NCBI GenBank assembly: GCA_964600895.1
Contig: CAZRKP010000003.1
Coordinates: 122,416 to 186,415, forward strand
Source: an uncultured Victivallis sp.
GTDB taxonomy: Bacteria > Verrucomicrobiota > Lentisphaeria > Victivallales > GWF2-50-93
Direction of reading: 5' to 3'
DNA: 64,000 nucleotides
Shown here: piece after piece, positions 25,489 to 46,848 of the stretch
Layout of the letters: each line of letters opens with the position of its first letter
How positions within the stretch are numbered: position 1 is the first letter of the stretch
Notes under the pieces: model-generated
Told to the model about the DNA's origin: nothing
Databases searched by the model: none
Seen by the model: only the letters and a program-made list of their open reading frames with translations
Program-made: the position numbers and the translations under genes

Positions 25489-25866
25489 TCATGAGCATTT
25501 TCCACACTGACCTGTAAACTCAATCTTGTAACCTGAGACATCCTTGTTGAGCTTCCTGATCTCGCCCAGTGACTTGTCGAGGATGTCCGCTCCCTCAGGA
25601 TCAAAATCCAATATCCTTCCGCACTTGAGGCATCTCAGGTGATGGTGATGGCTGATGTCACCATCAAATCTCATCTGAGAACCGGCACACTCTATCTTCT
25701 GAACATGCCCTTCCAGTGACAACACTTCAAGATTCCTGTAGACTGACGCAATACTTATCTTGGGAGTTCTCTTCCTTATGTGCTCATAGAACTCGTCCGC
25801 TGTCGGATGAGTCTTGAGCTTTTTCAGCTCCCTTAAGATAGCCTTCCGCTGTCTTGTTAATCTCAA
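25489..25866 (-). CDS. perR: Fur-family regulator, PerR-like
   Basis: TRQR, HPTADE, SIASVYRNL, RFD..HHH, CLKC, CGKC. TTG 25866 has a GAGG RBS; ATG 25890 lies inside the operator. Confidence 0.85.
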   Translation of the reverse strand: MRLTRQRKAILRELKKLKTHPTADEFYEHIRKRTPKISIASVYRNLEVLSLEGHVQKIECAGSQMRFDGDISHHHHLRCLKCGRILDFDPEGADILDKSLGEIRKLNKDVSGYKIEFTGQCGKCS

Positions 25867-25878
25867 TTTAACCTCAAT

Positions 25879-25897
25879 AATAAGAATCATTCTTATT
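25879..25897. promoter_or_regulatory. Fur/PerR-type operator (perfect 9-1-9 palindrome AATAAGAAT-C-ATTCTTATT)
   Basis: Perfect inverted repeat directly upstream of the Fur-family gene; 9-1-9 AT-rich geometry is typical of Fur-family boxes. Confidence 0.8.
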
Positions 25898-34104: not shown

Positions 34105-35070
34105 TCAAAAAAGAAGATCAATTATCAGCGGACGATGATCTGAACCTATTACATCTCCCACTCTCCTTCCGGACACTGAAACATCCGGAGAGATCAGGCA
34201 GTGATCTATGGGAATAAGCATGAGCGGATTAATTGTCGGCCACGTAGGCTGGATCCCAAATCCTTTCATTGAATTCCTCATCCCGGACTCTTTCAGGAAC
34301 TTCTTGAAATGAAGCGACCACGGCGTGATGTTCAGATCTCCCGCAAGGATCCTTATCCCATTCTCATCTTTCAGCACCTTCGAGAAATATGCCAGTTCCA
34401 TATTTCTTGTCCTGGAATATTCGCCGTTCACAGGTGGCAGGGCATGCACCGCCCAGAACTTGACAGTTTTACCGCGGATTCCGAACACCGCCTCAACGTA
34501 GGGAAGTTTGAATTCTCCCCACATTTTGATTTCACAGTTTTCTGGACTGATCCTGCTGAACAGCGCTATTCCAAAATTATCCGATTGTGGAAAAGATATC
34601 TTATATTCAAACTCCTTGGCAAGCTCTTCCAGATTACGCATCCATTCCTGATCAACCTCCTCGAGGATCAGGATGTCAGGCGCTTCCTTTTTCACGGCAG
34701 AGATCAGGGCAACGTAGTTTTTGTTGGCTGTATGGACATTCGCAAACATGAGCCTCAATATCGGATTTCCATCTGCTTCTGGAACTGATGGCTGCAGGTA
34801 TAGAGGAATTATCTCGAACAGGTTAGGTATGATGAAAATGGAGATGATGGTGGCAGTCCAGTATCTTTTCAGCAATGCCAGCAAGATGGCGGAGAACACA
34901 ATTACCAGGGCATACTGCGGCCTGAAATGCGAACAGAGGTCGAAGATCCAGAAATATCCTCCGAGATATCCTATGGAAGTCAGAAGTGATGCAAATATTC
35001 CAATTCCCGTGATTAGCGATATAAAGGAGACCTTTGTTGCAAGGACCTCCCTGATCCTACCTGCCATCAT
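34105..35070 (-). CDS. Membrane-anchored endonuclease/exonuclease/phosphatase (EEP, YafD-like) protein
   Basis: Three N-terminal TM; ANV, LEE, GDLN, PIDH, GSDHRP EEP motifs. Confidence 0.88.
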   Translation of the reverse strand: MMAGRIREVLATKVSFISLITGIGIFASLLTSIGYLGGYFWIFDLCSHFRPQYALVIVFSAILLALLKRYWTATIISIFIIPNLFEIIPLYLQPSVPEADGNPILRLMFANVHTANKNYVALISAVKKEAPDILILEEVDQEWMRNLEELAKEFEYKISFPQSDNFGIALFSRISPENCEIKMWGEFKLPYVEAVFGIRGKTVKFWAVHALPPVNGEYSRTRNMELAYFSKVLKDENGIRILAGDLNITPWSLHFKKFLKESGMRNSMKGFGIQPTWPTINPLMLIPIDHCLISPDVSVSGRRVGDVIGSDHRPLIIDLLF

Positions 35071-36101
35071 ATGACAACCCTGTTCCTGCCCTCCTCCTTG
35101 GCCTTGTAGAGATTCAAATCAGCATCATGGATGAGTTTCATGATATCCTGTTCCACCGATGAACTGATGAATCCGGAGGCCCCCCCTATGCTGACAGTGA
35201 CGGAGAAACTCATGGTGCTTCCGGTCTTTTCCTCCACATTGCTTCGGATCTTCTCACAGAGCGACACAATCGATTCAGGATCCTTGCAGTCGGCATAGAT
35301 TATGAACTCCTCGCCTCCATATCTTCCGATTATATCAGACTTGCGGATGCTTGAGCTGATTATAGAGGAGATGAACTTCAGGATTTCATCGCCCTTATGA
35401 TGCCCATACGTGTCGTTTATCTTCTTGAAATGATCGATGTCTATCATCAGGAAGCTAACCTTGAATTTCTTCCTTGATGCAAGGTATGCCACAGGATTGA
35501 CAGCGTTGAAGAACCCTCTCCGGTTGAGCAGTCCTGTCAGAATATCGCATGTATTTTCCTTGGCAAGGCGCCTGTTGTCCATCCAGAGAACCTCAAGCGT
35601 CTCTCCTAACATGTCGGCTTCAGAGATATTCTCCCCGTATTTCTTAAGACCTTCTATGAAATCTGCAATATGCCTGTCATATTCCTCCTCGATACTGTCA
35701 ACCCCTTCAAGGGTCCTGAATACGTGAAACATGGTCGCGAATTCGGGATTTATCATGAGGAATTCAAGCCGGTACGCAACTGGCAGGATCCGGAGGACAT
35801 CCGAGTAGTCTCCAATATCCTTGACCAGAAGAAGGACCTTCTCAAGCAACTTCTCGAATTTTTTCAATATGACCGCCGGGTCTTCAAATACATTTGGGAT
35901 CAGTTCTCTTTCGGCAAGCTTCTGGGCCCTGCTCCAAAATTCCACATGATCCCTTTCGTCCTTGGCAAGCCTGTTCCAGAACAGCTTCATTTTCTCATCG
36001 GAACAGGCGTTGGCCACCCTGTTATACAGCTGATAGGCCTGTGCATCTATCTTCAGACAGGTTTTTAAGATCTCTACGAGAAGCCTATTATTCTCTTCCA
36101 T
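35067..36101 (-). CDS. Diguanylate cyclase with N-terminal ferritin/rubrerythrin-like domain
   Basis: DILTGLLNRR, IDIDHFKKINDTYGH, RKSD I-site, RYGGEEF; N-terminal helical domain with DERDH. Confidence 0.88.
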   Translation of the reverse strand: MEENNRLLVEILKTCLKIDAQAYQLYNRVANACSDEKMKLFWNRLAKDERDHVEFWSRAQKLAERELIPNVFEDPAVILKKFEKLLEKVLLLVKDIGDYSDVLRILPVAYRLEFLMINPEFATMFHVFRTLEGVDSIEEEYDRHIADFIEGLKKYGENISEADMLGETLEVLWMDNRRLAKENTCDILTGLLNRRGFFNAVNPVAYLASRKKFKVSFLMIDIDHFKKINDTYGHHKGDEILKFISSIISSSIRKSDIIGRYGGEEFIIYADCKDPESIVSLCEKIRSNVEEKTGSTMSFSVTVSIGGASGFISSSVEQDIMKLIHDADLNLYKAKEEGRNRVVI

Positions 36102-36190: not shown

Positions 36191-39100
36191 ATGCCCTTCA
36201 TTCGGAAAATAGGATTTATATGTCTGCTTTCGATAGTTGGTCTCGCGGCTGGCGCTGACATACTTGACGATATATTCGCCCGTTCTACAGATTCCCAGCG
36301 CAAACAGGCGGTAATCGATGCCAGAAACGGCAAGTATGACGAAGCTGTAAAAATCATCAAGAATGTGCTGGCTGAAACAAAAAACGCCCCTGACATCTTA
36401 TGCGACAGCATTGTCATTTTCAAATGGGCCGGCAAATACGAAGATGCATTGGACTCCTTCAGCAAAATCCCCAAGGACTACAAGATACCCGACGCGGTAC
36501 AGCTGGAAATGGCGGTCGTATATTATAAACTTGGAAAGCCGGCCGAAGCTGCACTTCTCTTTGAAAAATACCTGCCGAAAAACGAGAAGGACGTGAAACT
36601 CGTCGAAATGATGGTCCTGTCCTGTATTGATTCTGGAAATTCCAGCAAGGCGTTGGTTTATCTCGAAGATCGTTCAAAGTCTGAAAAGGAAATCCCCCAA
36701 TGGCTGAATGCCCTGATAATCAGGTCAAAGCATGGAAAGGCGGTAGAAACCGCCAGGGCCGGACGTCTCCAGGAGGCTATATCAAACCTCGGTGACCTGA
36801 TAACACAGACTGGAGACAGGAAGAGCATATATTACGATTATATTGTCATCCTCTCCTGGGATCGCCAGTATGAAGAAGCCATTAAGAAATATGCTGAGAT
36901 CTCGCAAAGGAATGACATTCCCGCCTATGCACTTCAATGCATCTTCAACTGTTATGATCAGCTGAAGGACAAGGAAGGAATGCTTGAGGTCGCCAAAAAA
37001 CTTGCCCTCTCGGCTCCATTGGATCAGAAAAACCTCCAGCTGATGCTCCAAAGCTGTGAACTTGCAAACAAACCTGAGGACGGTATAGCAACAGCAGAAG
37101 CCCTGATACGGAATTCACCTGATTCCAAGGAAACTGTGAATCCATTCCTGATGAAGCTGAAACTGATGCTGGCGGTCAAGCTTGCCAGGAACGGTGAACA
37201 TGCCAAATCTCTTGAAATCCTTGAAGGACTTCTGAAGGAAAATGAAAATGATGCTGCCATCATGTCCAACTATATTCTTGTGCTTTCTTGGGCGGGAAAG
37301 AAGGAGGAAGCTAAAAAGATTTACGATGAGTTTTTCAAGGACAGGAAGCCCCCCGAATATCTCGTCAAGGAAATGACTGGACGCGCACCTGAAAAGACGG
37401 TGTTGACTATAGAACCAAATGAATCCACCGCTCTAAAGGAATCTCCTGCGGACAAAACTGCGGTTCAGGACACTGCCGACACTGTTTTAAAATATCTTGA
37501 TTCTGGGAAGATCGACAAGGCCATAGATGAAGTTGCAGGAAAACTCTCAAACCTCAACGAGAAGAACAGGGATTACCTCAACAAGTCGATGTCAATGATC
37601 CGGGAAAAGGCCATACAGGCGGGAAGGAACGGAAAATGCGATGAGGCTATCGTCATAATCGACAAACTCCTTGGTCTTAACTATGAAAAGCCCTCCCTTC
37701 TCGCCGACAAAATCATCATAATGGTATGGGCTGAGGACTATGCCAGTGCGATTGATCTTTATTCCAGGTTCAAAGATACTTATGCTCCCAATGCTCATTT
37801 GCTCAATGCTGTGGGCACGGCTTACAGGAGGACCGGAAAATATCACGAGGCCATTGAATGCTATGAAAAATCCCTGGCATTGGATTCCGACAATCCAGAA
37901 TCAATAAAAGGCAAGGTCTTTTCCTTGGTGGGTGCCGGACAAAATGCCGAAGCGGAGACTTTCATTAAAAAGGAATCGGAAAAACTGCAGCCAACTCCAA
38001 AATGGTTGATGCTGCTTCCGTGTGAAGCCTGCATTGTTGGTGGAAGATATGATGATGCGGGACGCCTGCTCAAGGAATACCTTGGAAAAGATCCTGATGA
38101 TAAAGAAGCAAGGAAAATGCTGGTTGAAGTTCGGATCCATCAGAAGACAGGTCTTGACGAGGCGATGAAGATCACGGAAGATCTCATAAAGGACGATTCT
38201 TCAAATCAAGACCTGTTGTTCCTAAAGGTCACTCTTCTCCAACTTTCAAGGGAATATATTGCAGCATACGACTTCAACGAGAGGATCCTTTCCATCAACA
38301 AGTTCTACAGGCCATCGATAAATGCAAAGTATCACATCCTTCTTGACATGAAGGCAGCAATCCTCGCGGACCAGATGCTCAGGGAATCCGGCGACAATGT
38401 GTCATATGCCGTGAAGAAAAGGCTGATGGGCGATCTCGCCGCCGAACAGCTGTCATGGAAGGATTACAGGAAGGCCATACAGGTGATCGATGAGAATATC
38501 CAGACATATGACAAGTTCAAGGCCATTCCCGAAGCCGCAGAAGACGCCGAGACCCTGAAGCTGAGAGCCCGTTTTGACAGGATACTCGCCCTTTTCCAGG
38601 GCGAAAAGATGGCGGAGATAATAAAAGAATACGAATCATTGAAGGCAGATGGCATTGATGTGCCTTCCTGGCTCAGGCAGAACGTGGCCGCAGCCTATCT
38701 CTACTGCCGTCATCCCGATACCGCCCTCGCCATGTATAGGGAAATCCACGAGGAGCTCAAAAAAGACGGCATTGACAGGTATCCCGACAACTACATCGTC
38801 CTCCAGGGAATTTATTCATGTCTCATAGAGCTGGAAGACCAGAGCGCAGCATATGATATCCTCGAAGTCCTTGAGAAGGAGACACCGGCATACGCAAGGC
38901 CTACAGGTGTCTATACTGAAAATTCAGAGAAGCTGGATTTGGGGGTGGAAAGGGGATGGTGGTACATCTACAACGACCAGCTTCCTTATGCCGAGGAATA
39001 TCTTTCCGAACTCATTGAAAAGGCCCCCTACAATTCCAACATAAGGACTGCCATTGGCTACCTGCATTACTACCGTGGATGGTCGCGGCTGGCCCTCGAG

Positions 39101-40156
39101 GACTTCCAGATATCCACCGAGCTCGATCCCAACGACAAGTCGGCCCAGATAGGATTGGCCTACACCCTCAACGAAAACGATGAATGGGAGAAGGCAAGAA
39201 CTGTTGCCGCTGAACTCGCAAAGAAATATCCCGAGGATCTGGATGTAAAGGAGCTCCAGAGATCCTTCGAACTGCAGGAGAAGAGAACACTCACGGTCGA
39301 CAGCAACTATTCCAACGCCGGCAACTTCTCAGACGGATCCGGTGTCACGATGCGTCTGGAACAGCCGATATATCCTGAGAGGAAGATCTATGCTGAAACG
39401 CTATGGCTTTACACTTCACAGCCCAAGGATTCCAACCAGGAAGGAAAAAGAAGGAACATATTCCGTGGAGCCATAGGATTCGATTGGCGGCTCAGCAATG
39501 GCCTCTACATATTTGGAGAGGCTTCGCTGGACTATCACGCCAGAGAGCCTGGTTTCATGGCTGGTCTCAGATGGAAGCCGACAGATCATCTGACCCTGAG
39601 CGGCTTCTACAATTCATACACCCTCAACATGCCTCCCAAGGCCCTGCTCTTCGGAAAGAAGGGTCAGGAGGCCAATATCTCCGCAGAATACCGCTTCAGC
39701 GAGGATCTTATCGTGAATGCCGGATTTTCAAATGTATGGGTGTCTGACGGGAACATAAACCAGACCTATAGCTGGAAGATTGACAAAGGTATCTGGTCTT
39801 CGGCCTACTGGAAGTTCAGGATTGCTGTTGAAGGATCCACCACCACCAATACCAAGATCGACACAGACTATTATTCTCCCAGATACTATACCTCTGTATA
39901 TTTCGTCCCGATGGTTGAACATCTCTGGTACAGGCGCTATGAGACATCAATCGTAGACAGGCTTTTCCTGGGTATCGGCCCGCATTGGGAGAAGGATTAC
40001 ACATGCAAGGCACAATATTACCTGCGTTATGAGCAGGAATATCAGCTTACTGATTATTTCGGATTCAAGATTGGCGGAAAGATAGGCAAGGAAAGATACG
40101 GGGATGACAACCCATGCGCATGGGGATTCTATGGAAGCCTGATATTTAAGTTTTAA
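36191..40156 (+). CDS. pgaA: PNAG export porin PgaA, extended TPR version (1321 aa)
   Basis: Signal peptide; repeated ARxG..D-x-I-x-x-x-x-W modules; DRILAL..EY, W..Q.VAAAYL; C-terminal aromatic beta-barrel ending in F; first gene of pgaBCD. Confidence 0.85.
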   Translation: MPFIRKIGFICLLSIVGLAAGADILDDIFARSTDSQRKQAVIDARNGKYDEAVKIIKNVLAETKNAPDILCDSIVIFKWAGKYEDALDSFSKIPKDYKIPDAVQLEMAVVYYKLGKPAEAALLFEKYLPKNEKDVKLVEMMVLSCIDSGNSSKALVYLEDRSKSEKEIPQWLNALIIRSKHGKAVETARAGRLQEAISNLGDLITQTGDRKSIYYDYIVILSWDRQYEEAIKKYAEISQRNDIPAYALQCIFNCYDQLKDKEGMLEVAKKLALSAPLDQKNLQLMLQSCELANKPEDGIATAEALIRNSPDSKETVNPFLMKLKLMLAVKLARNGEHAKSLEILEGLLKENENDAAIMSNYILVLSWAGKKEEAKKIYDEFFKDRKPPEYLVKEMTGRAPEKTVLTIEPNESTALKESPADKTAVQDTADTVLKYLDSGKIDKAIDEVAGKLSNLNEKNRDYLNKSMSMIREKAIQAGRNGKCDEAIVIIDKLLGLNYEKPSLLADKIIIMVWAEDYASAIDLYSRFKDTYAPNAHLLNAVGTAYRRTGKYHEAIECYEKSLALDSDNPESIKGKVFSLVGAGQNAEAETFIKKESEKLQPTPKWLMLLPCEACIVGGRYDDAGRLLKEYLGKDPDDKEARKMLVEVRIHQKTGLDEAMKITEDLIKDDSSNQDLLFLKVTLLQLSREYIAAYDFNERILSINKFYRPSINAKYHILLDMKAAILADQMLRESGDNVSYAVKKRLMGDLAAEQLSWKDYRKAIQVIDENIQTYDKFKAIPEAAEDAETLKLRARFDRILALFQGEKMAEIIKEYESLKADGIDVPSWLRQNVAAAYLYCRHPDTALAMYREIHEELKKDGIDRYPDNYIVLQGIYSCLIELEDQSAAYDILEVLEKETPAYARPTGVYTENSEKLDLGVERGWWYIYNDQLPYAEEYLSELIEKAPYNSNIRTAIGYLHYYRGWSRLALEDFQISTELDPNDKSAQIGLAYTLNENDEWEKARTVAAELAKKYPEDLDVKELQRSFELQEKRTLTVDSNYSNAGNFSDGSGVTMRLEQPIYPERKIYAETLWLYTSQPKDSNQEGKRRNIFRGAIGFDWRLSNGLYIFGEASLDYHAREPGFMAGLRWKPTDHLTLSGFYNSYTLNMPPKALLFGKKGQEANISAEYRFSEDLIVNAGFSNVWVSDGNINQTYSWKIDKGIWSSAYWKFRIAVEGSTTTNTKIDTDYYSPRYYTSVYFVPMVEHLWYRRYETSIVDRLFLGIGPHWEKDYTCKAQYYLRYEQEYQLTDYFGFKIGGKIGKERYGDDNPCAWGFYGSLIFKF

Positions 40157-40167
40157 GGGGACATATA

Positions 40168-42156
40168 ATGAGAAAATTTGCGATAATCACAATTTTACTT
40201 CTGTGCCTTCCGGTGATGGCTCAGAATCTTTCCATGTTCTCCGGAGGCGACTTCAGAGGTAGCAATCCCATTGACATCAGCAAAGGATTCCCTCCAAATT
40301 CCTTCCTGGTTCTATGCTACCATGATATTCCATTCAAAATTGCAGATGACAAGGATGCCTATGCCGTGGAGCTCGAATCTTTCGTGAAACAGCTTGAATA
40401 CCTCAAATCCGAGGGATGCAGTTTCATAAGCGCTGACGACATCCTCAAGGCCAAGGTCGGGGAGAAGAAGCTTCCGGAAAAGGCGGTGCTGCTTTCCTTC
40501 GACGACGCATACGACACTTTCTACAGGAATGTCTTTCCACTGCTCAAGCTTTACAAATGTCCGGCCGTGCTCGCAGTAGTGACAAGCTGGATAGACGCCC
40601 CGCCGGATGATCCGGAATACAACAAGAAATTCATGACCTGGGAACAGTTGCGTGAAGTCGCGTCCTCTGGGTTTGTAAAAATTGCCAGCCACAGCCATGC
40701 CCAGCACAAGGGAGTTCTTATGAACCCCCTTGGAAGCATGGCTTCCGCCATACAGACCAGGATATATGATCCCGCAGGTAGGAAATATGAGACCGACCAG
40801 GAATACATCGGACGACTGCGCGATGATTTCAGCAGGTCGTTCTTGATTATAAAGGAAAGGACCGGGGTTGCGCCGGAATCCATCGTCTGGCCTTATGGAA
40901 GATATAACTATGCTGCAGTTCAAGAGGCACAGAAAGCAGGCTTCAAGATGATGTTCACACTCGACGATGGATTTGGAACTCCTGAAAGGATTGATGCCAT
41001 ACCCAGATACATGATAATGAATAATCCGACCATAGAGAATTTCGCGGTCATGTTCAAGAAGAGTTTCATGAACATCGCCAGGCTCCGTGTCATCCATGCC
41101 GATCTGGACTCAGTCTATGATCCGGATCCGGAAAAGCAGAATAAGAATATCGACGCCTTCATAGAGAGGATCTACAGGATTAAGCCTTCCGCCGTATACC
41201 TCCAGGCGTTCTGCGACGATAAGGGTGATGGAAACGTATCATCCGTATATTTCAACAACAGGTTGCTGCCGATGAAGGCCGATATCTTCAGCAGGATAGC
41301 CCGTTCATTGTTCGTAAGAGGGATATCCGTCTATGCCTGGATGCCTGCGATGACCTATGTCCTGCCGGATGAAAAGGAGAACGAAAGGCTGCGGATCTGT
41401 GAGTTCCGCGATGGAAAGATCCAGCCTTCCACCTCATGGTATAAGCGCCTTTCCCCGTTCAACGAGGATGCATGCCGGAAGATAGAGATGATCTTCGAGG
41501 ATCTATCCATCTACTGCGATTTCGATGGAATAATCTTCCAGGACGACGCATACATGAATGACTACGAGGATTTCAGCCCTGAGGCTTTGAAGGAATACGT
41601 CAAGATCTCCGGTGATGCCAATATTCCTTTCAGCAAGCTGAGCAACGAGCAAAAGGATAAATGGACAGATGTCAAGACTGAAAGAATAATGTCTCTCACG
41701 GACAGGATCAAGAAAAAAGTACTTTACTACCGGCCTGAGATCCGTTTCGCCAGGACCCTTTATGCCCCGGTACTTCTAAAGCCTGAAAGCGAGGAATGGT
41801 TCTGTCAGAATTATGAGAAGACCTTGAAACGTTATGATTATGCTGTCATAATGGCATATCCGAAGATGGAAGATGTGTCGGTTTTCAGCGAGGACTCATG
41901 GCTCAGGTCGCTTGTCCAAAAGGCATCCAAATTCCCGAACGGGCTTGACAGTACTGTCTTCAAGACACAGGCATTCGACTGGAAAAAGGACAAATGGATC
42001 AGTTCCTCCACGGTCAACCAATGGCTCAGGATCCTTGTGGCGGCAGGTGCATATCACATTGCATATTATCCTGATGATTATATCGGCAACCGTCCTGATT
42101 TGAAGACCATATCTGACATGATATCTTCAAGGTATTTCCCATATGAAAACAAATAG
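40168..42156 (+). CDS. pgaB: PNAG N-deacetylase / GH153 PgaB
   Basis: VLCYHD, LSFDDAY, ASHSHAQH (CE4); DLDSVYDPD, FQDDAY..DYEDFS, YAVIMAYP, AYYPDD (GH153). Confidence 0.94.
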   Translation: MRKFAIITILLLCLPVMAQNLSMFSGGDFRGSNPIDISKGFPPNSFLVLCYHDIPFKIADDKDAYAVELESFVKQLEYLKSEGCSFISADDILKAKVGEKKLPEKAVLLSFDDAYDTFYRNVFPLLKLYKCPAVLAVVTSWIDAPPDDPEYNKKFMTWEQLREVASSGFVKIASHSHAQHKGVLMNPLGSMASAIQTRIYDPAGRKYETDQEYIGRLRDDFSRSFLIIKERTGVAPESIVWPYGRYNYAAVQEAQKAGFKMMFTLDDGFGTPERIDAIPRYMIMNNPTIENFAVMFKKSFMNIARLRVIHADLDSVYDPDPEKQNKNIDAFIERIYRIKPSAVYLQAFCDDKGDGNVSSVYFNNRLLPMKADIFSRIARSLFVRGISVYAWMPAMTYVLPDEKENERLRICEFRDGKIQPSTSWYKRLSPFNEDACRKIEMIFEDLSIYCDFDGIIFQDDAYMNDYEDFSPEALKEYVKISGDANIPFSKLSNEQKDKWTDVKTERIMSLTDRIKKKVLYYRPEIRFARTLYAPVLLKPESEEWFCQNYEKTLKRYDYAVIMAYPKMEDVSVFSEDSWLRSLVQKASKFPNGLDSTVFKTQAFDWKKDKWISSSTVNQWLRILVAAGAYHIAYYPDDYIGNRPDLKTISDMISSRYFPYENK

Positions 42157-42170
42157 ATGAAGGACAGATA

Positions 42171-43400
42171 ATGGATATCGTCTACAATTTCGTATTCTAC
42201 TATCCCCTTCTTATGGGTTTCATCTGGATGTTCGGTTCCATACTATTCCGCATATACAGGGACACCTATTTGATCAAGGAACCTGATATCCCTGGAAATC
42301 CGATGGTTTCCATACTGGTCCCCTGCCACAATGAGGAGGAATGCATCGAGGATACGATTCGCTATCTCCAGCTGCAGTCCTATCGTAACTTTGAGATCAT
42401 CGCAATAGACGATGCAAGCAAGGACAAGACTGGAGAGATACTCATGAACCTTCAGAAGGAGTTCAGTAATCTCCGCGTGATCACCCTCAAAAGCAACCAG
42501 GGAAAGGGAACTGGATTGACCATGGCTGCAATGGTAAGCAAGGGTGAATTCCTGGTTGGTATTGATGCTGATGCACTTCTTGATCCTGATGCGGTAAAAT
42601 GGATAATGTGGCATTTTGCAAATTTCCCCAGAGTCGGTGCCGTCACAGGAAATCCCAAGGTAAGGAACAGGACCACTCTTCTTGCGAAGATACAGGTCGG
42701 CGAATATTCCACCATCATCGGAATGATAAAGAGGACGCAGAGGATCCTCGGCAAGATATATACCGTGTCTGGTGTTGTCGCGGCATTCAGGAAGAAAGCC
42801 CTGCTTGACGTTGGCTGGTGGTCCAACAACATGGTAACGGAAGACATTGATGTCAGCTGGAAGCTGCAGATTGACAAATGGGACATCCGCTATGAGGCTC
42901 GTGCACTCTGCTGGATACTTGTTCCAGAAACCCTCAAAGGAATCTTCAAGCAGCGCCTACGCTGGTCTCAAGGAGGGAACGAGGTGCTTATTAAATATTT
43001 CCCAAAGATACTCGATTGGAAAAGCCGCAGGATCTGGCCACTTTACATTGAGTATGCCGCAAGCGTACTCTGGTGCTATCTCCTCCTGCTTACATTTATA
43101 CTGTCAGTTCTTTATCTTCTGAATGTCCCGCTTCCTCAGGATCTTGTCGTGAGAAATGTCCTTTCTCCGGGCTGGACCGGAGTCCTTCTCGCCGCGGTCT
43201 GCATGCTCCAGCTTACGGTCGGGATAATATTTGATGCCAGATATGACAAAACCTTGCTGAAGATAATACCATGGATGATCTGGTATCCCGCCATTTACTG
43301 GGTAATCACCGCAATAACAACCATAATTGCATTCCCGAAGGCCCTGCTTAAGAAGAGGAATACTCTTGCGGTCTGGGAAAGCCCGGACAGGGGGTTGTGA
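42171..43400 (+). CDS. pgaC: PNAG synthase PgaC (GT2)
   Basis: PCHNEE, IDDAS, GIDADA, VTEDIDVSW, QRLRW, AVWESPDRG. Confidence 0.96.
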   Translation: MDIVYNFVFYYPLLMGFIWMFGSILFRIYRDTYLIKEPDIPGNPMVSILVPCHNEEECIEDTIRYLQLQSYRNFEIIAIDDASKDKTGEILMNLQKEFSNLRVITLKSNQGKGTGLTMAAMVSKGEFLVGIDADALLDPDAVKWIMWHFANFPRVGAVTGNPKVRNRTTLLAKIQVGEYSTIIGMIKRTQRILGKIYTVSGVVAAFRKKALLDVGWWSNNMVTEDIDVSWKLQIDKWDIRYEARALCWILVPETLKGIFKQRLRWSQGGNEVLIKYFPKILDWKSRRIWPLYIEYAASVLWCYLLLLTFILSVLYLLNVPLPQDLVVRNVLSPGWTGVLLAAVCMLQLTVGIIFDARYDKTLLKIIPWMIWYPAIYWVITAITTIIAFPKALLKKRNTLAVWESPDRGL

Positions 43401-43927
43401 TGAAAGAAGAAAAGAATTTTGACAAACCTATCATCATTGAAAGACCCAGTCTGGTCTCCAAGACACGGCATTATACGGAATGGACCATCCACATCATAGG
43501 TTGGATCCTCTGGATGCTCCTCATACGCCCGCTTATCATTTTGCTTTTGTGGTATCTCACCTACAGGTTCTTCAAATATGAGATGTTCACCCTCGAGGGG
43601 ATAGACAATCCGATATATTTCGGAATTGGAGCAGGAATACTTGTATCAATCTATCTGATCATGTTCGTCTGGAGCCGGTATAATGCATGGAGGTTCAAGG
43701 GCAAGGACAGACGCAAATCGCGCGGTGATGCAACACCGGAGGCAATAGCGGAATTCTATAAGATGAAGACGGAAGACATTTCCGCCCTCCAGAGTTCCAG
43801 CAAGATTGACATTTATTTCCTCGACAACGAACTCATAGAAATTGATAATGGCAGGGAAAACAGGATCAAGGCGTTATACGCACCGCTTAACCAGTCAAAA
43901 CACCATGACAAGAATTTTAAAATCTAA
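43397..43927 (+). CDS. pgaD: PNAG biosynthesis protein PgaD
   Basis: PIII, two TM helices, WSRYN..RF.G.DRR; overlaps the pgaC stop. Confidence 0.88.
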   Translation: MMKEEKNFDKPIIIERPSLVSKTRHYTEWTIHIIGWILWMLLIRPLIILLLWYLTYRFFKYEMFTLEGIDNPIYFGIGAGILVSIYLIMFVWSRYNAWRFKGKDRRKSRGDATPEAIAEFYKMKTEDISALQSSSKIDIYFLDNELIEIDNGRENRIKALYAPLNQSKHHDKNFKI

Positions 43928-43928
43928 T

Positions 43929-44507
43929 ATGTCTCCTGTAATTGTGGGAATGAGCATAAGCGGAATATTCCGCATGCTAGATCCATATACCAGGAAGCAT
44001 AGCCGGCGTATAAGCCGCATGGCTGTGATCATTGCAAGAAAAGTGGGGGTCTGCGACAAGGATGAACTGCGGAAAATAAGGATAGGCTGCCTATACCACG
44101 ACATAGGAAAACTTTTTATACCCTTGGAGGTCCTTAACAAGTCTGAACCACTCAGCAGAAGGGAATATTCCATGATAAAGAAACATCCCGTGTTCGGCTT
44201 GAGGATCATAAAGCGCTTTCCTGAACTTCATGATATCTCAAAAATAATCCTGCAGCACCATGAATCATGGGATGGGACCGGGTATCCACATGGCCTCAAA
44301 GCCGGGAAGACCTGTCTTGGAGCAAGGATCTGCAGTCTGGCAGATTCTTTCGATGCAATGCGGACGGACAGGACGTATAGCGGCAAAAAGCCCTTCCTCT
44401 TGGTAGTCAAAGAAATAAACAGATGTTCAGGGAAGAGATATGATCCTTCTGTCGTAGAGGCCTTCAACAAATGTGCCAGAAAACTTGACATGCTTGCAAG
44501 GGGATAA
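43929..44507 (+). CDS. Stand-alone HD-GYP c-di-GMP phosphodiesterase
   Basis: HSRR, YHDIGK, KHP, HHESWDGTGYP, ADSFDAM; ATG 43929 directly after the pgaD stop. Confidence 0.9.
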   Translation: MSPVIVGMSISGIFRMLDPYTRKHSRRISRMAVIIARKVGVCDKDELRKIRIGCLYHDIGKLFIPLEVLNKSEPLSRREYSMIKKHPVFGLRIIKRFPELHDISKIILQHHESWDGTGYPHGLKAGKTCLGARICSLADSFDAMRTDRTYSGKKPFLLVVKEINRCSGKRYDPSVVEAFNKCARKLDMLARG

Positions 44508-44511
44508 TAAG

Positions 44512-46170
44512 ATGAAAAGATTCAAAATATTCTTGCAAATCCTGATAACAGTTTGCTCCCTCAATGCATTAGCTCTCTCTCCTGAATTGGACAATTCGCT
44601 TACACCTGCTGAAAAAGAATGGATTAAAAAGCATCCTGCCATCCGCCTGGGAGTCGACAATTCCAGCTATTTCAGGGGCATGATTGATGATAACGGAAAT
44701 TATACCGGCATGGGTGCCGACTACGTCCGTCTTCTTGAAAAAAAGACAGGGCTTTTATTCAAGATCGTTCTTTGCGAAAACTGGAGCAATGTCATTGCAA
44801 AGGCCAAAGCCAAGGAAATTGATGTCATTCCGATAGTAGCAAAGACTCCTGAAAGGGAAAAATTCCTGAAGTTTACCATTCCATTCATTGACATGCCGAA
44901 TGTAATAATAACCTCCAGGAAAAGATCAGATATTACAAGTATTAACGATTTACGGGGCAAAACAGCTTCTGTAAACAAGGGATATGTCATACAGGAATGG
45001 CTTTCGGAAAACCATCCTGAAATAAAACTGGTATTCAGGACAAGTTCGGAGGAAGGTCTGAAGGCTGTCGCCGTTGGGGAAGTCGATTCATATGTCGGCG
45101 ATCTCTCTACAGCCGTATATGCCATCAACCATCTTTACCTGTCAGATCTAAAAATAGCGGCAAACGTTCCTTTCAATGTGAAATGGGGAATGGCGGTACG
45201 CGAGGACTGGCCGGAACTTGTAGCAATCCTCGACAAGGCCATCGGTTCTACCAATCCTGAAGAACATGCTGCAATAAAACGAAAATGGACCACTCTGTAC
45301 AGCGGAATTGATTATAAAACATTTCTCCTGATCATCATCCCCCTCATCATTGTTTTTATATTGCTGACAATGCTATATTCAAATATTCGACTGAAGAAAG
45401 AGGTTCTCCAGAGGAAAATTTCCGAAGCTAGACTTGAAAGCCTCCAGAAGATATCCCACTACAAGGCAAAGAGTATCCAGGACCTGCTGGATTATGCGCT
45501 CGGAGAAGCTATTTCCCTGACCAGCAGTAAGATCGGCTACATATACCATTATAATGAGGAAAGAGAAGAGTTTGTCCTGAACACGTGGTCGAAAGATGTC
45601 ATGAAGGAATGTACCATCGCCAATCCACAGAACATATACAAGTTAGACAAGACTGGAATATGGGGTGAGGCAGTACGCCAGAGGAAACCGATCATGCTGA
45701 ACAATTTCGAAGCACCCCATCCCCTGAAGAAAGGCTATCCGGAAGGTCATGCGAAATTATATCGGTTCATGACTATACCGGTTTTTGTCGAAGACAAGAT
45801 AGTTGCTGTCGCCGGCGTGGCGAATAAGGAGAAAGATTATGATGAGGCCGACGTAAGACAGCTTTCCATGCTTATGGATTCAGTATGGAAATATGTACAT
45901 AAGAAAGAATTGGAATCTGAAAAGGAAAAACTTATAAACGACCTCCAGAAGGCATTGTCAGAAGTCAAGACTCTCAGTGGGCTTCTGCCTATCTGCGCCA
46001 ACTGCAAAAAAATACGCGATGACAAAGGATACTGGGATATCCTTGAAAGTTATTTCATGAAGCATTCAGACACCAAATTCTCACATGGAATATGCCCGGA
46101 CTGCATGAAGAAGCTTTATCCCGAATATGCGGCAGATCTTGAAGACAAAGGACCATCTCAAAATCCATGA
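44512..46170 (+). CDS. Membrane sensor: periplasmic PBP domain - TM - GAF - small Cys4 domain
   Basis: Signal peptide; PBPb-like region (GMGADY, IDVIP, VAVGEVDSYVGD); one TM; GAF (GIWGEAVRQRKP, GYPEGH); C-terminal CANC...HGICPDC; no H-box, ATPase or GGDEF. Confidence 0.8.
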   Translation: MKRFKIFLQILITVCSLNALALSPELDNSLTPAEKEWIKKHPAIRLGVDNSSYFRGMIDDNGNYTGMGADYVRLLEKKTGLLFKIVLCENWSNVIAKAKAKEIDVIPIVAKTPEREKFLKFTIPFIDMPNVIITSRKRSDITSINDLRGKTASVNKGYVIQEWLSENHPEIKLVFRTSSEEGLKAVAVGEVDSYVGDLSTAVYAINHLYLSDLKIAANVPFNVKWGMAVREDWPELVAILDKAIGSTNPEEHAAIKRKWTTLYSGIDYKTFLLIIIPLIIVFILLTMLYSNIRLKKEVLQRKISEARLESLQKISHYKAKSIQDLLDYALGEAISLTSSKIGYIYHYNEEREEFVLNTWSKDVMKECTIANPQNIYKLDKTGIWGEAVRQRKPIMLNNFEAPHPLKKGYPEGHAKLYRFMTIPVFVEDKIVAVAGVANKEKDYDEADVRQLSMLMDSVWKYVHKKELESEKEKLINDLQKALSEVKTLSGLLPICANCKKIRDDKGYWDILESYFMKHSDTKFSHGICPDCMKKLYPEYAADLEDKGPSQNP

Positions 46171-46179
46171 ATCCTCACC

Positions 46180-46848
46180 TTATGAGGAAACCAACTCCAT
46201 CCATGCCCGTTTTGCACTGACGGTAAAATTGAGACAAAGCTTCGGATTGCGGCTACCATCCGGATTCTTGAGTCCGCTGTTCGCATCGACACCGTAAGGT
46301 CTAACGATCCTGATAGCCTCTGCTACGTTCTCACGGTTCAGTCCGCCTGCAAGTATCACCGGGAGCTGGGAATTCTTCACTATTTCCGCGCTTAACGCCC
46401 AGTCGTGGACCATCCCTGTTCCACCGACCTGTCCGGTGATCTTGTTGTAACTGTCCAGGAGAATCGCATCTATGAAGGGATAATATTCTTCCAGTGACGG
46501 CATCTTACCATCAACCACATGGACAGCATATATTATCTTGCCGTTCTTTGGAAGTGCATCGCATATCTTCCTGACCTCATCGACTGAATTTTTCCCATGC
46601 AGCTGGAGGGTAACCACATCCGTCTTTTTGACTATGTCAATAATCGAGTCGGCATCGGTAAGATGCGTGACTATTACAGGTGTTATATATGGCGTCATCA
46701 GCTCTGCAAGCCTTGCGGCTGTGCTTGGAAGGATGAAATCTGTGGATGCATGTACCTGCCCGACAAGCATCCCAGCCGCATCCGCTCCAGACTTGATAAC
46801 CGCATAAACGTCGGTTTCCGTCTTTATACCGCATATTTTGACTCTCAT
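46180..46848 (-). CDS. trpF: Phosphoribosylanthranilate isomerase-like protein
   Basis: MRVKICG, QLHG, LLDS, GGTG..HDW, LAGGLN.ENV, PYGVDANSG; start 46848 overlaps the coaX stop. Confidence 0.85.
   Translation of the reverse strand: MRVKICGIKTETDVYAVIKSGADAAGMLVGQVHASTDFILPSTAARLAELMTPYITPVIVTHLTDADSIIDIVKKTDVVTLQLHGKNSVDEVRKICDALPKNGKIIYAVHVVDGKMPSLEEYYPFIDAILLDSYNKITGQVGGTGMVHDWALSAEIVKNSQLPVILAGGLNRENVAEAIRIVRPYGVDANSGLKNPDGSRNPKLCLNFTVSAKRAWMELVSS

What the first reader, a model, noticed from the sequence alone, without database searches (positions are those of the whole stretch)
44512..46170. Membrane sensor whose only output is a ~70-aa Cys4 (CxxC...HxxCxxC) module
Seen: signal peptide, periplasmic PBP domain, one TM, cytoplasmic GAF, a short coiled linker, then LLPICANCKKIRDDKGYW...FSHGICPDC and stop. 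There is no HisKA/HATPase, GGDEF, EAL or HTH, and no frameshift remnant before the convergent trpF. I recognise this Cys4 tail from many hypothetical signalling proteins but know no assigned function. Inference: a non-catalytic Zn-binding output domain that controls a partner by protein contact; the immediately upstream sensor-less HD-GYP is the natural candidate.
Basis: partly seen in the sequence, partly recalled or inferred. Interest (0 to 1): 0.62.

Follow-up and report, generated by a model that had tools for sequence, protein, structure and literature searches.

The report
Membrane sensor with unnamed zinc-type output
The last gene of a biofilm-polysaccharide (PNAG) operon encodes a membrane sensor that ends in a tiny four-cysteine module instead of a known output enzyme; this module closes tens of thousands of bacterial sensor proteins, yet I found no database model, solved structure or paper for it.

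Summary
ORF 44512-46170 (+) encodes 552 aa: signal peptide, SBP_bac_3, one TM helix, GAF_2, a conserved helix, then CxxC-x29-CxxC and stop. It has no kinase, GGDEF, EAL, HD-GYP or HTH domain. Only 9 nt separate its stop from the convergent trpF-like gene.

The helix-plus-Cys4 tail matches nothing significant in Pfam, NCBIfam, PDB sequences or two Foldseek libraries. Its profile finds 24,382 protein clusters (50% identity). In 80 genomes from more than 12 phyla it is always C-terminal. It follows PAS, REC, GAF, HAMP or membrane inputs, never another output.

The only remote relative is the Zn(Cys)4 part of the Fur/PerR dimerisation domain (hhalign 84-90%, controls at most 28%).

The HD-GYP-partner idea is only locally supported. 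The pgaABCD-HD-GYP-sensor operon is conserved and tightly packed in five Lentisphaerota genomes. Elsewhere, 74 tail genes have no conserved neighbour, and four stand-alone HD-GYP homologues have no tail gene nearby.

Best reading: a solute-sensing receptor with a zinc-clamped, non-enzymatic output that acts by contact on a partner still unknown, here tied to PNAG and c-di-GMP control.

Novelty: new variant of a known kind. Interest: 0.65.

The parts
44512..46170 (+). Sensor gene, 552 aa (P0001): signal peptide, SBP_bac_3, TM, GAF, helix, Cys4 module
   Evidence: ORF list and translation; Pfam; SD AAGGGGA 8 nt before the ATG
44641..45291 (+). Periplasmic solute-binding (Venus-flytrap) domain, residues 44-260
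   Evidence: PF00497 SBP_bac_3 E 2.8e-20. Best NCBIfam match is the second periplasmic domain plus TM of EvgS, E 1.2e-18, far below that model's cut-off
45313..45381 (+). Single transmembrane helix, residues ~268-290
   Evidence: Hydrophobic stretch FLLIIIPLIIVFILLTMLY read from the sequence. The hydropathy scan counts 2 segments, the signal peptide and this TM
45469..45891 (+). Cytoplasmic GAF domain, residues 320-460
   Evidence: PF13185 GAF_2 E 7.9e-27. The same GAF at 58-70% identity is fused to HisKA or HD-GYP, or stands upstream of further PAS plus GGDEF or HD-GYP, in other proteins
45898..45969 (+). Conserved signalling helix, residues ~463-486 (KELESEKEKLINDLQKALSEVK)
   Evidence: AF2 helix at 2-22 of the 82-aa construct. 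Heptad a/d positions L474, L478, A481, V485, L488 read from the sequence. The E-x-E-R-E motif sits exactly 25 residues before P-I-C in 37 of 38 tail proteins that carry it. The distance from the GAF end to the first Cys is identical in P0001, P0021 and P0058
45976..46122 (+). Cys4 module, residues 489-537: C495-x2-C498-x29-C528-x2-C531. Invariant K499 K500 I501 R502 D503 D504 G506 Y507 W508 E512 Y514 H518 F523 H525 L535 Y536 P537
   Evidence: Conservation over 217 distinct tails (that printout is numbered 8 too high, and the numbering used here follows). No Pfam, NCBIfam or PDB match. AF2 pLDDT 91.8. hhalign to the Fur/PerR dimerisation domain 84-90%
43929..44507 (+). Stand-alone HD-GYP phosphodiesterase gene (192 aa from ATG 43929), the candidate local partner
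   Evidence: PF13487 HD_5 E 3.4e-31. Matches only the catalytic half of PmGH 4mcw, E 3.1e-29, with HD, HHE and GYP kept. Starts 1 nt after the pgaD stop
36191..43927 (+). pgaA (36191-40156), pgaB (40168-42156), pgaC (42171-43400), pgaD (43397-43927): PNAG synthesis and export genes upstream in the same tightly packed gene string
   Evidence: ORFs. PgaD PF13994 E 1.6e-21. PgaA_barrel, Polysacc_deac_1/GHL13 and Glyco_transf_2 on the orthologous loci
35067..36101 (-). Divergently transcribed GGDEF cyclase gene
   Evidence: ORF. GGDEF on the orthologous loci in the same position
46180..46848 (-). Convergent trpF-like gene that bounds the sensor gene (9-nt spacer)
   Evidence: PF00697 PRAI E 9e-24; sequence

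Best explanation
The gene encodes a transmembrane receptor. A periplasmic solute-binding domain senses a small molecule outside. The signal passes through one TM helix and a cytoplasmic GAF domain into a rigid, probably dimeric, coiled-coil helix of fixed length. That helix ends in a ~50-residue Cys4 module.

I read the helix plus module as one portable, non-enzymatic output device. The four cysteines hold a structural metal, most likely zinc. They lock a small dimerisation fold remotely like the Zn(Cys)4 half of the Fur/PerR dimerisation domain. Rotation or register shifts of the helix change how the two modules sit against each other. A trans-acting partner reads this through the invariant polar and aromatic surface (KKIRDD-G-YW, E-Y, H, F-H).

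This surface is nearly identical in tens of thousands of sensors and response regulators that share no neighbour. So the partner is most likely one conserved component encoded elsewhere, not a gene-specific one. This copy is dedicated to PNAG biofilm control by being co-transcribed and co-translated with pgaABCD and a sensor-less HD-GYP.

Shown: the architecture, the operon and its conservation, the family size, the strict C-terminal position, the lack of any known output, the lack of a conserved neighbour, and the Fur-type similarity. Inferred: metal binding, dimerisation, signalling by contact, and the effect on PNAG.
For: Architecture and absence of any known output domain.

Output position:
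- The same GAF (58-70% identity) leads through the same helix start (...VWK..ERK.AE...) into HisKA, HisKA_2 or HD-GYP, or into further PAS domains in GGDEF, HD-GYP or sigma-54 proteins, in other proteins.
- 77 tail proteins carry PAS (44), REC (16), HisKA_7TM (5), Reg_prop (5), GAF (4), SBP_bac_3 (4) or HAMP (4), and no output domain appears among the 25 commonest of the 30 Pfam families hit.
- A histidine-kinase gene overlaps a REC-helix-tail gene by 4 nt in L008.

Position and rigidity: the tail lies 8-36 residues from the C-terminus in all 74 loci, and the helix motif sits at a fixed 25-residue distance.

Family size: 24,382 clusters at E<=1e-3.

One common target:
- About 20 polar and aromatic positions are at least 90% conserved over 217 tails from many phyla.
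- The 137 flanking genes fall into 164 Pfam families, and only REC and HATPase recur (11 each).

Fur-type clamp:
- hhalign 87.7% against PerR.
- 83-90% against a 121-sequence profile of this genome's own Fur-family protein.
- Controls: reversed sequences 0.4-0.6%, 30 column shuffles with the Cys columns fixed at most 15.8%, rubredoxin with identical Cys spacing 3.5%, 21 other Cys4 segments at most 27.9%.

Link to PNAG: gaps of 1-14 nt or overlaps along pgaA to the sensor, and the same operon in four further Lentisphaerota genomes.
Against: - No partner is identified, and no binding, metal content or dimerisation has been measured.
- The fold is not secure. The first AF2 run (28 sequences) gave pLDDT 66 and different secondary structure. 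In the second run only one of five models reached 91.8; the others scored 66-81.
- Foldseek finds no relative, not even Fur proteins (best E 0.69 in PDB, 0.15 in BFVD).
- Pfam FUR does not hit the tail. Single Fur sequences other than PerR give only local matches.
- The hhalign E-values are one-to-one values, not corrected for a database search.
- Tight coupling to the HD-GYP could equally mean a direct, operon-specific partner.
- A cluster of invariant Lys, Arg, Asp, Trp and His would also suit a nucleotide or nucleic-acid site.
Confidence: 0.45

Rival explanations
1. First reader's model. The tail binds and switches the co-translated, sensor-less HD-GYP phosphodiesterase. The periplasmic signal then sets local c-di-GMP at the PgaCD synthase.
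For: - The HD-GYP is a bare catalytic domain with HD, HHE and GYP intact.
- Stand-alone HD-GYPs are stated to be rare (bioRxiv 10.1101/2021.11.05.467447).
- The sensor's ribosome-binding site lies inside the HD-GYP gene end, with a 4-nt gap and a 1-nt gap in the orthologues.
- The pair persists in five genomes while the sensor gains a second GAF.
- This HD-GYP subfamily has no close relative outside the clade: identity drops from 59% to 44%.
Against: - HD-GYP is adjacent to only 1 of 74 tail genes elsewhere, and that one is the orthologue.
- Sensors of the same plan, P0026 and P0084, have none nearby.
- Four stand-alone HD-GYP homologues have no tail gene within 5 kb.
- The tail surface here is the family consensus, with nothing operon-specific.
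- The conservation comes from one clade with conserved flanks, so it may be simple synteny.
Confidence: 0.2
2. The tail is a small zinc finger that binds DNA or RNA, which would make these proteins one-component regulators (membrane-tethered in this case).
For: Invariant K499 K500 R502 and K541/K542-type basic residues beside a Cys4 knuckle. Galperin et al. predict nucleic-acid binding for the haloarchaeal CxxC-x20-25-CxxC output HalOD2 (PMC5847659).
Against: - Recognition residues of DNA-binding families differ between paralogues, whereas this tail is nearly invariant.
- 41 of 77 tail proteins have membrane segments.
- No conserved divergent target gene is seen.
- No match to any DNA-binding family or structure.
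Confidence: 0.12
3. The tail is a ligand, metal or redox site rather than an output. Examples would be a c-di-GMP or other nucleotide receptor, a second regulatory metal site as in Fur proteins, or a thiol or Fe(Cys)4 redox switch. It would add a cytoplasmic input.
For: Invariant Arg, Asp, Asp, Trp, Glu and two His besides the four Cys. The locus is c-di-GMP-centred. D503 aligns with the Asp five residues after the first CxxC of PerR. The C-x2-C-x29-C-x2-C spacing equals that of rubredoxin (read from the sequences).
Against: - No profile similarity to rubredoxin (3.5%).
- ComFB, a Zn-containing c-di-NMP receptor, has a different Cys pattern and fold (PMC12448109).
- The other Fur regulatory-site ligands lie outside the aligned part.
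- A module after a signalling helix at the extreme C-terminus of REC proteins is the place of an output.
Confidence: 0.1
4. The tail is only a structural dimer cap, and signalling goes through the sensor domains themselves.
For: Its only detectable relative is a dimerisation domain with a structural zinc site.
Against: Conservation extends to many exposed polar residues that a fold does not need. REC-helix-tail proteins of about 210 aa would then have no output at all.
Confidence: 0.08

Closest known systems
Dimerisation domain of Fur-family regulators, Zn(Cys)4 type (B. subtilis PerR, PDB 2fe3; this genome's own Fur-family gene at 25492-25890, minus strand)
   Same: Two CxxC pairs. The local pattern I-C-x-x-C-[GK]-[KR]-[IV]-x-D is followed by a helix carrying a conserved Glu, then a strand, then G-[IV]-C-P-x-C. 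hhalign gives 84-90% over 39-46 columns, well above all controls.
   Different: No winged-helix DNA-binding domain. No Pfam FUR hit. No Foldseek match. The last strand is six residues shorter. Many invariant residues (K499, R502, D504, G506, W508, Y514, H518, F523, H525) are not Fur features. The module is attached to sensors through a coiled coil.
Sensor-signalling helix-output proteins (GAF/PAS/REC-coiled coil-HisKA, GGDEF or HD-GYP)
   Same: Same order of parts. The same GAF subfamily and the same start of the linker helix. Fixed helix length. An E-R-E motif at a core position recalls the S-helix described by Anantharaman, Balaji and Aravind 2006 (my own knowledge).
   Different: The output is a ~50-residue Cys4 module with no catalytic or phosphotransfer motif.
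BvgS/EvgS-type Venus-flytrap sensor kinases
   Same: A periplasmic SBP_bac_3 domain directly followed by one TM helix and a cytoplasmic PAS or GAF domain. EvgS is the best NCBIfam match (E 1.2e-18).
   Different: One periplasmic domain rather than two, no kinase core, and a score far below the EvgS cut-off (66 vs 1995 bits).
HalOD2 output domain of haloarchaeal response regulators (Galperin et al. 2018, PMC5847659)
   Same: A helical segment, then two conserved CxxC motifs at the C-terminus of a signalling protein; function unknown.
   Different: Reported only in a few halobacteria, with 20-25 residues between the motifs (29 here). No sequences were at hand for a comparison.
E. coli dgcT(ycdT)-pgaABCD and c-di-GMP activation of PgaC-PgaD (my own knowledge; reviews PMC8461298 and PMC10211494 were listed but not read)
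   Same: A cyclase gene transcribed divergently from pgaABCD.
   Different: This operon is extended by a stand-alone HD-GYP and a membrane sensor with the Cys4 tail.

Membership tests
H-[ST] ... F-[ST]-H-G-x-C-x-x-C | tested here: met
   All positions are present in P0001
L-I-x-x-L-x-x-A-L-x-x-[VI]-K-x-L-x-G) at a fixed distance before the first Cys | tested here: met
   P0001 has ESEKEKLINDLQKALSEVKTLSG. The distance is 25 residues in 37 of 38 members
   21 residues follow the last Cys. The range is 8-36 in 74 loci. Domain tallies
Fur/PerR family (PF01475) | N-terminal winged-helix DNA-binding domain | tested here: not met
   Pfam finds only SBP_bac_3 and GAF
Fur/PerR family (PF01475) | Match to the family model | tested here: not met
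   No FUR hit for the tail even at E<=10
Fur/PerR family (PF01475) | Dimerisation domain with a CxxC...CxxC structural zinc site | tested here: inconclusive
   hhalign 84-90% with clean controls, but no Foldseek match and weak single-sequence matches
Histidine kinase | HisKA/DHp with phospho-accepting His, plus HATPase_c | tested here: not met
c-di-GMP enzymes | GGDEF, EAL or HD-GYP domain in the sensor protein | tested here: not met
   the HD-GYP is a separate upstream gene
BvgS/EvgS-type sensor | Periplasmic SBP_bac_3 domain(s) plus TM | tested here: met
BvgS/EvgS-type sensor | Kinase, receiver and Hpt phosphorelay core | tested here: not met
   (66 bits against a cut-off of 1995)
Rubredoxin | C-x2-C-G ... 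C-P-x-C-G knuckles with the rubredoxin fold | tested here: not met
   Same Cys spacing, but hhalign 3.5% over 9 columns and no Pfam hit
ComFB c-di-NMP receptors (PF10719) | Helical ComFB fold; Zn ligands C25, C27, C30 and C88 in the Bacillus protein | tested here: not met
   Different Cys pattern (PMC12448109); no Pfam hit
ZAS anti-sigma factors | H-x3-C-x2-C motif in an anti-sigma domain | tested here: not met
   The tail has H-x2-C-x2-C, and there is no zf-HC2 hit. The motif definition is from my own knowledge
HalOD2 | Two CxxC motifs 20-25 residues apart after a HalX-like helical part | not tested
   Known only from the description in PMC5847659; the spacing here is 29

The most novel reading that the evidence does not exclude
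The helix-plus-Cys4 module is a general, so far unrecognised output device of bacterial signal transduction, alongside kinase, GGDEF/EAL, chemoreceptor and HTH outputs. Thousands of PAS, GAF, REC and membrane sensors in more than a dozen phyla would converge through one nearly invariant, zinc-clamped dimer on a single conserved target encoded elsewhere. One speculative version: the Fur-like module pairs with Fur-family regulators. This Lentisphaerota operon, with its defined PNAG read-out and a sensor-less HD-GYP next door, would be a ready test bed.
Probability: 0.35. Interest if true: 0.88.

Novelty: new variant of a known kind. Interest (0 to 1): 0.65.

Why it matters
Censuses of bacterial signalling count outputs as kinases, cyclases and phosphodiesterases, chemoreceptors, and DNA-binding domains. 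This tail closes at least 24,000 protein clusters, including response regulators fed by ordinary histidine kinases. Yet it has no model in Pfam (2025 copy) or NCBIfam (2026 copy), no solved structure, and no paper I could find. If it signals to one common target, a whole route of bacterial signalling is unmapped.

This locus adds something the other copies lack. It has a conserved operon with a measurable phenotype (PNAG biofilm and c-di-GMP) and a concrete candidate partner. The question can therefore be tested in a laboratory E. coli strain.

Tried and rejected
- **Known family for the tail.** Pfam, NCBIfam and PADLOC at E up to 10 or 1 gave only noise: DUF3039, zf-C4pol, TIGR04104 at E 0.079.
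- **PDB by sequence and by profile.** Only weak local hits. These were the Rad50 zinc hook; a 'Membrane protein' 7yjw (E 0.097); and a glutamate dehydrogenase stretch IRRDDGSWEVIEGYRAQHS resembling IRDDKGYWDILESYFMKHS (E ~0.3). I read all of them as chance.
- **Foldseek.** Two models against PDB and one against BFVD gave nothing at E<0.1.
- **Rubredoxin.** It has the same Cys spacing, but hhalign gave 3.5%.
- **ComFB, Zn-containing c-di-NMP receptors.** Different Cys pattern and fold.
- **Literature.** The tail's sequence strings occur in no paper of the library. Five keyword searches found no description.
- **Conserved neighbour.** All-against-all clustering and Pfam tallies of flanking genes in 80 loci found none.
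- **Rosetta-stone fusions.** Tails that are not C-terminal are all first halves of tandem (sensor-helix-tail)x2 proteins.
- **Stand-alone tails.** The short ORFs in L036 and L085 look like a truncated and a frameshifted gene.
- **Promoter and terminator scan of the operon.** Counts did not differ from shuffles.
- **Other copies in the window.** None.
Full report
**1. What is in the sequence**

The plus strand carries an ORF from 44473 (GTG) or 44512 (ATG) to 46170. I take the ATG as the start for two reasons:
- A strong Shine-Dalgarno, AAGGGGA, lies 8 nt upstream, inside the last codons of the preceding gene.
- The 70%-identical orthologue P0003 also has 552 residues.

The 552-aa product (P0001) has these parts:
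- a signal-peptide-like N-terminus, read from the sequence;
- SBP_bac_3 at residues 44-260 (E 2.8e-20);
- one hydrophobic TM segment at about 268-290;
- GAF_2 at residues 320-460 (E 7.9e-27);
- nothing else in Pfam or NCBIfam.

After the GAF comes KELESEKEKLINDLQKALSEVKTLSGLLPIC495ANC498KKIRDDKGYWDILESYFMKH518SDTKFSH525GIC528PDC531MKKLYPEYAADLEDKGPSQNP and stop. The stop codon lies 9 nt from the end of the convergent trpF-like gene. No output domain can have been lost there, and the orthologues end at the same place.

**2. The surroundings**

The gene is the last in a tightly packed string:

| Gene | Coordinates |
|---|---|
| pgaA | 36191-40156 |
| pgaB | 40168-42156 |
| pgaC | 42171-43400 |
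| pgaD | 43397-43927 |
| HD-GYP | 43929-44507 |
| sensor | 44512-46170 |

Gaps are 1-14 nt, or the genes overlap. A GGDEF gene at 35067-36101 is transcribed divergently.

The HD-GYP is a bare catalytic domain. It aligns only to residues 182-354 of the active enzyme PmGH (4mcw, E 3.1e-29) and keeps HD, HHE and GYP.

The whole arrangement, flanks included, recurs in Lentisphaeria and Victivallales assemblies (L001-L007). There the sensor is 70-74% identical and the HD-GYP stop lies 1 nt from the sensor start. Matching contig lengths of the sensor and HD-GYP clusters point to five genomes in all. In some of them the sensor has gained a second GAF while keeping the tail.

**3. The tail as a family**

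I cut 28 tails of 82 residues (helix plus Cys4 module) from the first homologue search and made a profile from them. It finds 24,382 clusters at 50% identity with E<=1e-3, and 20,054 with E<=1e-10.

A scan of one genome per species gave more than 590 hits. The 80 loci kept come from:
- Lentisphaerota, Nitrospirota, Thermodesulfobacteriota, Myxococcota;
- Spirochaetota, Chloroflexota, Verrucomicrobiota, Planctomycetota;
- Ignavibacteriota, Bacteroidota, Acidobacteriota, Zixibacteria;
- Hydrogenedentota, Fidelibacterota and Proteobacteria.

In all 74 loci where I could call the gene, the tail ends 8-36 residues before the stop.

The 77 tail proteins carry PAS (44), REC (16), HisKA_7TM (5), Reg_prop/Y_Y_Y (5), GAF (4), SBP_bac_3 (4) or HAMP (4) domains, or rarer sensor domains. 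None of the 25 Pfam families listed, of 30 hit, is a known output domain. About half (41 of 77) have membrane segments.

In L008 a histidine-kinase gene overlaps a 212-aa REC-helix-tail gene by 4 nt, a classical two-component pair.

Proteins with two tails are tandem (sensor-helix-tail)x2 fusions. No tail is followed by a different domain.

Proteins carrying the same GAF subfamily (58-70% identity) have other outputs instead of the tail. In some the GAF's linker helix leads directly into HisKA, HisKA_2 or HD-GYP. In others further PAS domains come first, before GGDEF, HD-GYP or sigma-54 domains. The sequences diverge a few residues after the shared VWK..ERK.AE start of the linker helix. So the tail stands where an output stands.

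**4. Anatomy of the module**

Over 217 distinct tails, the following positions are at least 90% conserved (P0001 numbering):
- in the helix: E470, E472, L474, I475, L478, A481, L482, K486, L488, G490;
- in the module: P493, I494, C495, C498, K499, K500, I501, R502, D503, D504, G506, Y507, W508, E512, Y514, H518, F523, H525, C528, C531, L535, Y536, P537.

The printout is numbered 8 too high; I corrected it.

The helix has a clean a/d heptad pattern (L474, L478, A481, V485, L488, L492), with a conserved Glu at a core position. The E-x-E-R-E motif lies exactly 25 residues before P-I-C in 37 of 38 cases. Helix and Cys4 part are therefore one rigid module.

AlphaFold2 gave these results:

| Alignment | pLDDT | Secondary structure |
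|---|---|---|
| 28 sequences | 66 | different from the run below |
| 69 sequences, best model | 91.8 | helix 2-22, strand 27-33, short helix 34-40, helix 45-56, strand 58-64, helix 67-73 |
| 69 sequences, other four models | 66-81 | not reported |

In the best model each CxxC sits at a strand-to-helix turn. Because the two runs differ and only one model is confident, the fold is provisional.

**5. Is it related to anything known?**

Sequence libraries give nothing significant. Foldseek gives no match better than E 0.69 in PDB or 0.15 in BFVD.

Earlier notes of this scan suggested a likeness to the Fur/PerR dimerisation domain. I tested that here:

| Comparison with the tail profile (hhalign) | Probability |
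|---|---|
| B. subtilis PerR, 46 columns spanning both CxxC motifs (E 3.4e-6) | 87.7% |
| Four Fur-family sequences | 83.9% |
| 121-123-sequence profiles of this genome's own Fur-family protein | 83-90% |
| Control: reversed Fur alignment | 0.4% |
| Control: reversed tail alignment | 0.6% |
| Control: 30 column shuffles of the Fur domain, Cys columns fixed | at most 15.8% |
| Control: 21 other CxxC...CxxC segments | at most 27.9% |
| Control: rubredoxin, same C-x2-C-x29-C-x2-C spacing | 3.5% |

The window's own Fur-family gene lies at 25492-25890 on the minus strand (PF01475, E 9e-29).

The likeness therefore goes beyond the cysteines. It remains moderate, however:
- Pfam FUR does not hit the tail.
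- Single Fur sequences other than PerR give only local matches.
- Foldseek does not recover Fur structures.

I treat the tail as possibly derived from, or convergent with, the zinc-locked half of that dimerisation domain. It is not a member of the Fur family.

**6. Testing the HD-GYP-partner idea**

*From the tail side.* Among the flanking genes of 74 tail genes, phmmer with the window's HD-GYP finds three hits in about 800 kb. Only the orthologue L007 is adjacent.

The 137 immediate neighbours fall into 164 Pfam families. Only REC and HATPase_c recur, at 11 each. Clustering finds no recurrent neighbour family. Two sensors of the same SBP-TM-sensor-tail plan from other lineages lie beside glycogen and malonyl-CoA decarboxylase genes, not beside an HD-GYP.

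*From the HD-GYP side.* Close relatives (59-68% identity) exist only in the Lentisphaerota operons. Identity then drops to 44% or less. Four stand-alone homologues sampled outside the clade have no tail gene within 5 kb.

The pairing is therefore a clade-specific arrangement. It is still notable for three reasons: the HD-GYP has no sensor of its own, such stand-alone forms are said to be rare, and the two genes are translationally coupled. But it gives no family-level support for the idea.

**7. How it most likely works**

The near-invariance of about twenty surface-type residues across thousands of sensors with unrelated inputs and unrelated neighbours resembles domains that all meet the same partner or substrate. 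Examples are the chemoreceptor tip and the GGDEF domain. It does not resemble DNA-binding domains, whose recognition residues differ between paralogues.

My best reading (confidence 0.45) runs as follows:
- Ligand binding in the periplasmic domain is passed through the TM helix and GAF into the coiled coil.
- The coiled coil sets the mutual position of two zinc-clamped modules.
- A conserved partner encoded elsewhere reads that state by contact.
- In this operon the result bears on PNAG production.

The rivals are:
- direct control of the adjacent HD-GYP (0.2);
- nucleic-acid binding (0.12);
- a ligand, metal or redox site acting as a second input (0.1);
- a purely structural cap (0.08).

None of these is excluded. 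Metal identity, dimerisation and any interaction remain inferences.

**8. Novelty**

The overall plan (sensor, signalling helix, C-terminal output) is standard. The output module is not described in any library or paper I could reach. I rate it a new variant of a known kind.

There is a 0.35 chance that it marks a distinct, general signalling route. Several earlier notes of this scan reached similar conclusions on other genomes. I used them as leads and re-tested the two that mattered: the absence of any family model, and the Fur likeness.

Noticed in passing
window 25492-25890 (-): A 133-aa Fur/PerR-type regulator (PF01475, E 9e-29). Its best PDB relative is B. subtilis PerR (E 4.8e-21), and it has a HHHH-x3-CxxC ... 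CxxC dimerisation domain. I used it as this genome's own yardstick for the tail comparison.
   Followed up: partly
L008:4391-6261: A histidine-kinase gene overlaps by 4 nt a 212-aa response regulator made of REC, helix and Cys4 tail. This is a complete two-component pair whose only output is the tail.
   Followed up: partly
P0121-P0147: Many proteins are tandem fusions of two full (membrane sensor or REC)-helix-tail units in one chain. In the second or first copy the last CxxC or the F-S-H-G motif is often degenerate.
   Followed up: no
L040, L041, L084, L087: Two tail-bearing sensor genes lie in the same locus (adjacent in L084 and L087). This hints at duplication, or at sensors that work together.
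   Followed up: no
L004-L006 (P0005), L007: In some Lentisphaerota orthologues the sensor is about 770 aa because the GAF domain is duplicated. The periplasmic domain, tail and operon position stay the same.
   Followed up: partly
window 45469-45891 (GAF): This GAF belongs to a subfamily kept at 58-70% identity in proteins of many phyla with quite different outputs. That suggests one conserved, unidentified ligand.
   Followed up: no
L039, L036 and one further locus: An AAA_14/DUF4143 ATPase gene lies directly upstream of the tail gene in three unrelated loci. In L036 the tail ORF is reduced to 97 aa, as if truncated by an insertion.
   Followed up: no
L059 and two further loci; L087:5218-6120: A PhnD-like periplasmic binding protein gene (PF12974) lies directly upstream of tail sensors in three loci, and near the sensor pair in L087.
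   Followed up: no
window 46168-46182: The sensor gene and the trpF-like gene converge with only 9 nt between their stops and no terminator-like hairpin. Transcripts of the two operons would overlap.
   Followed up: no
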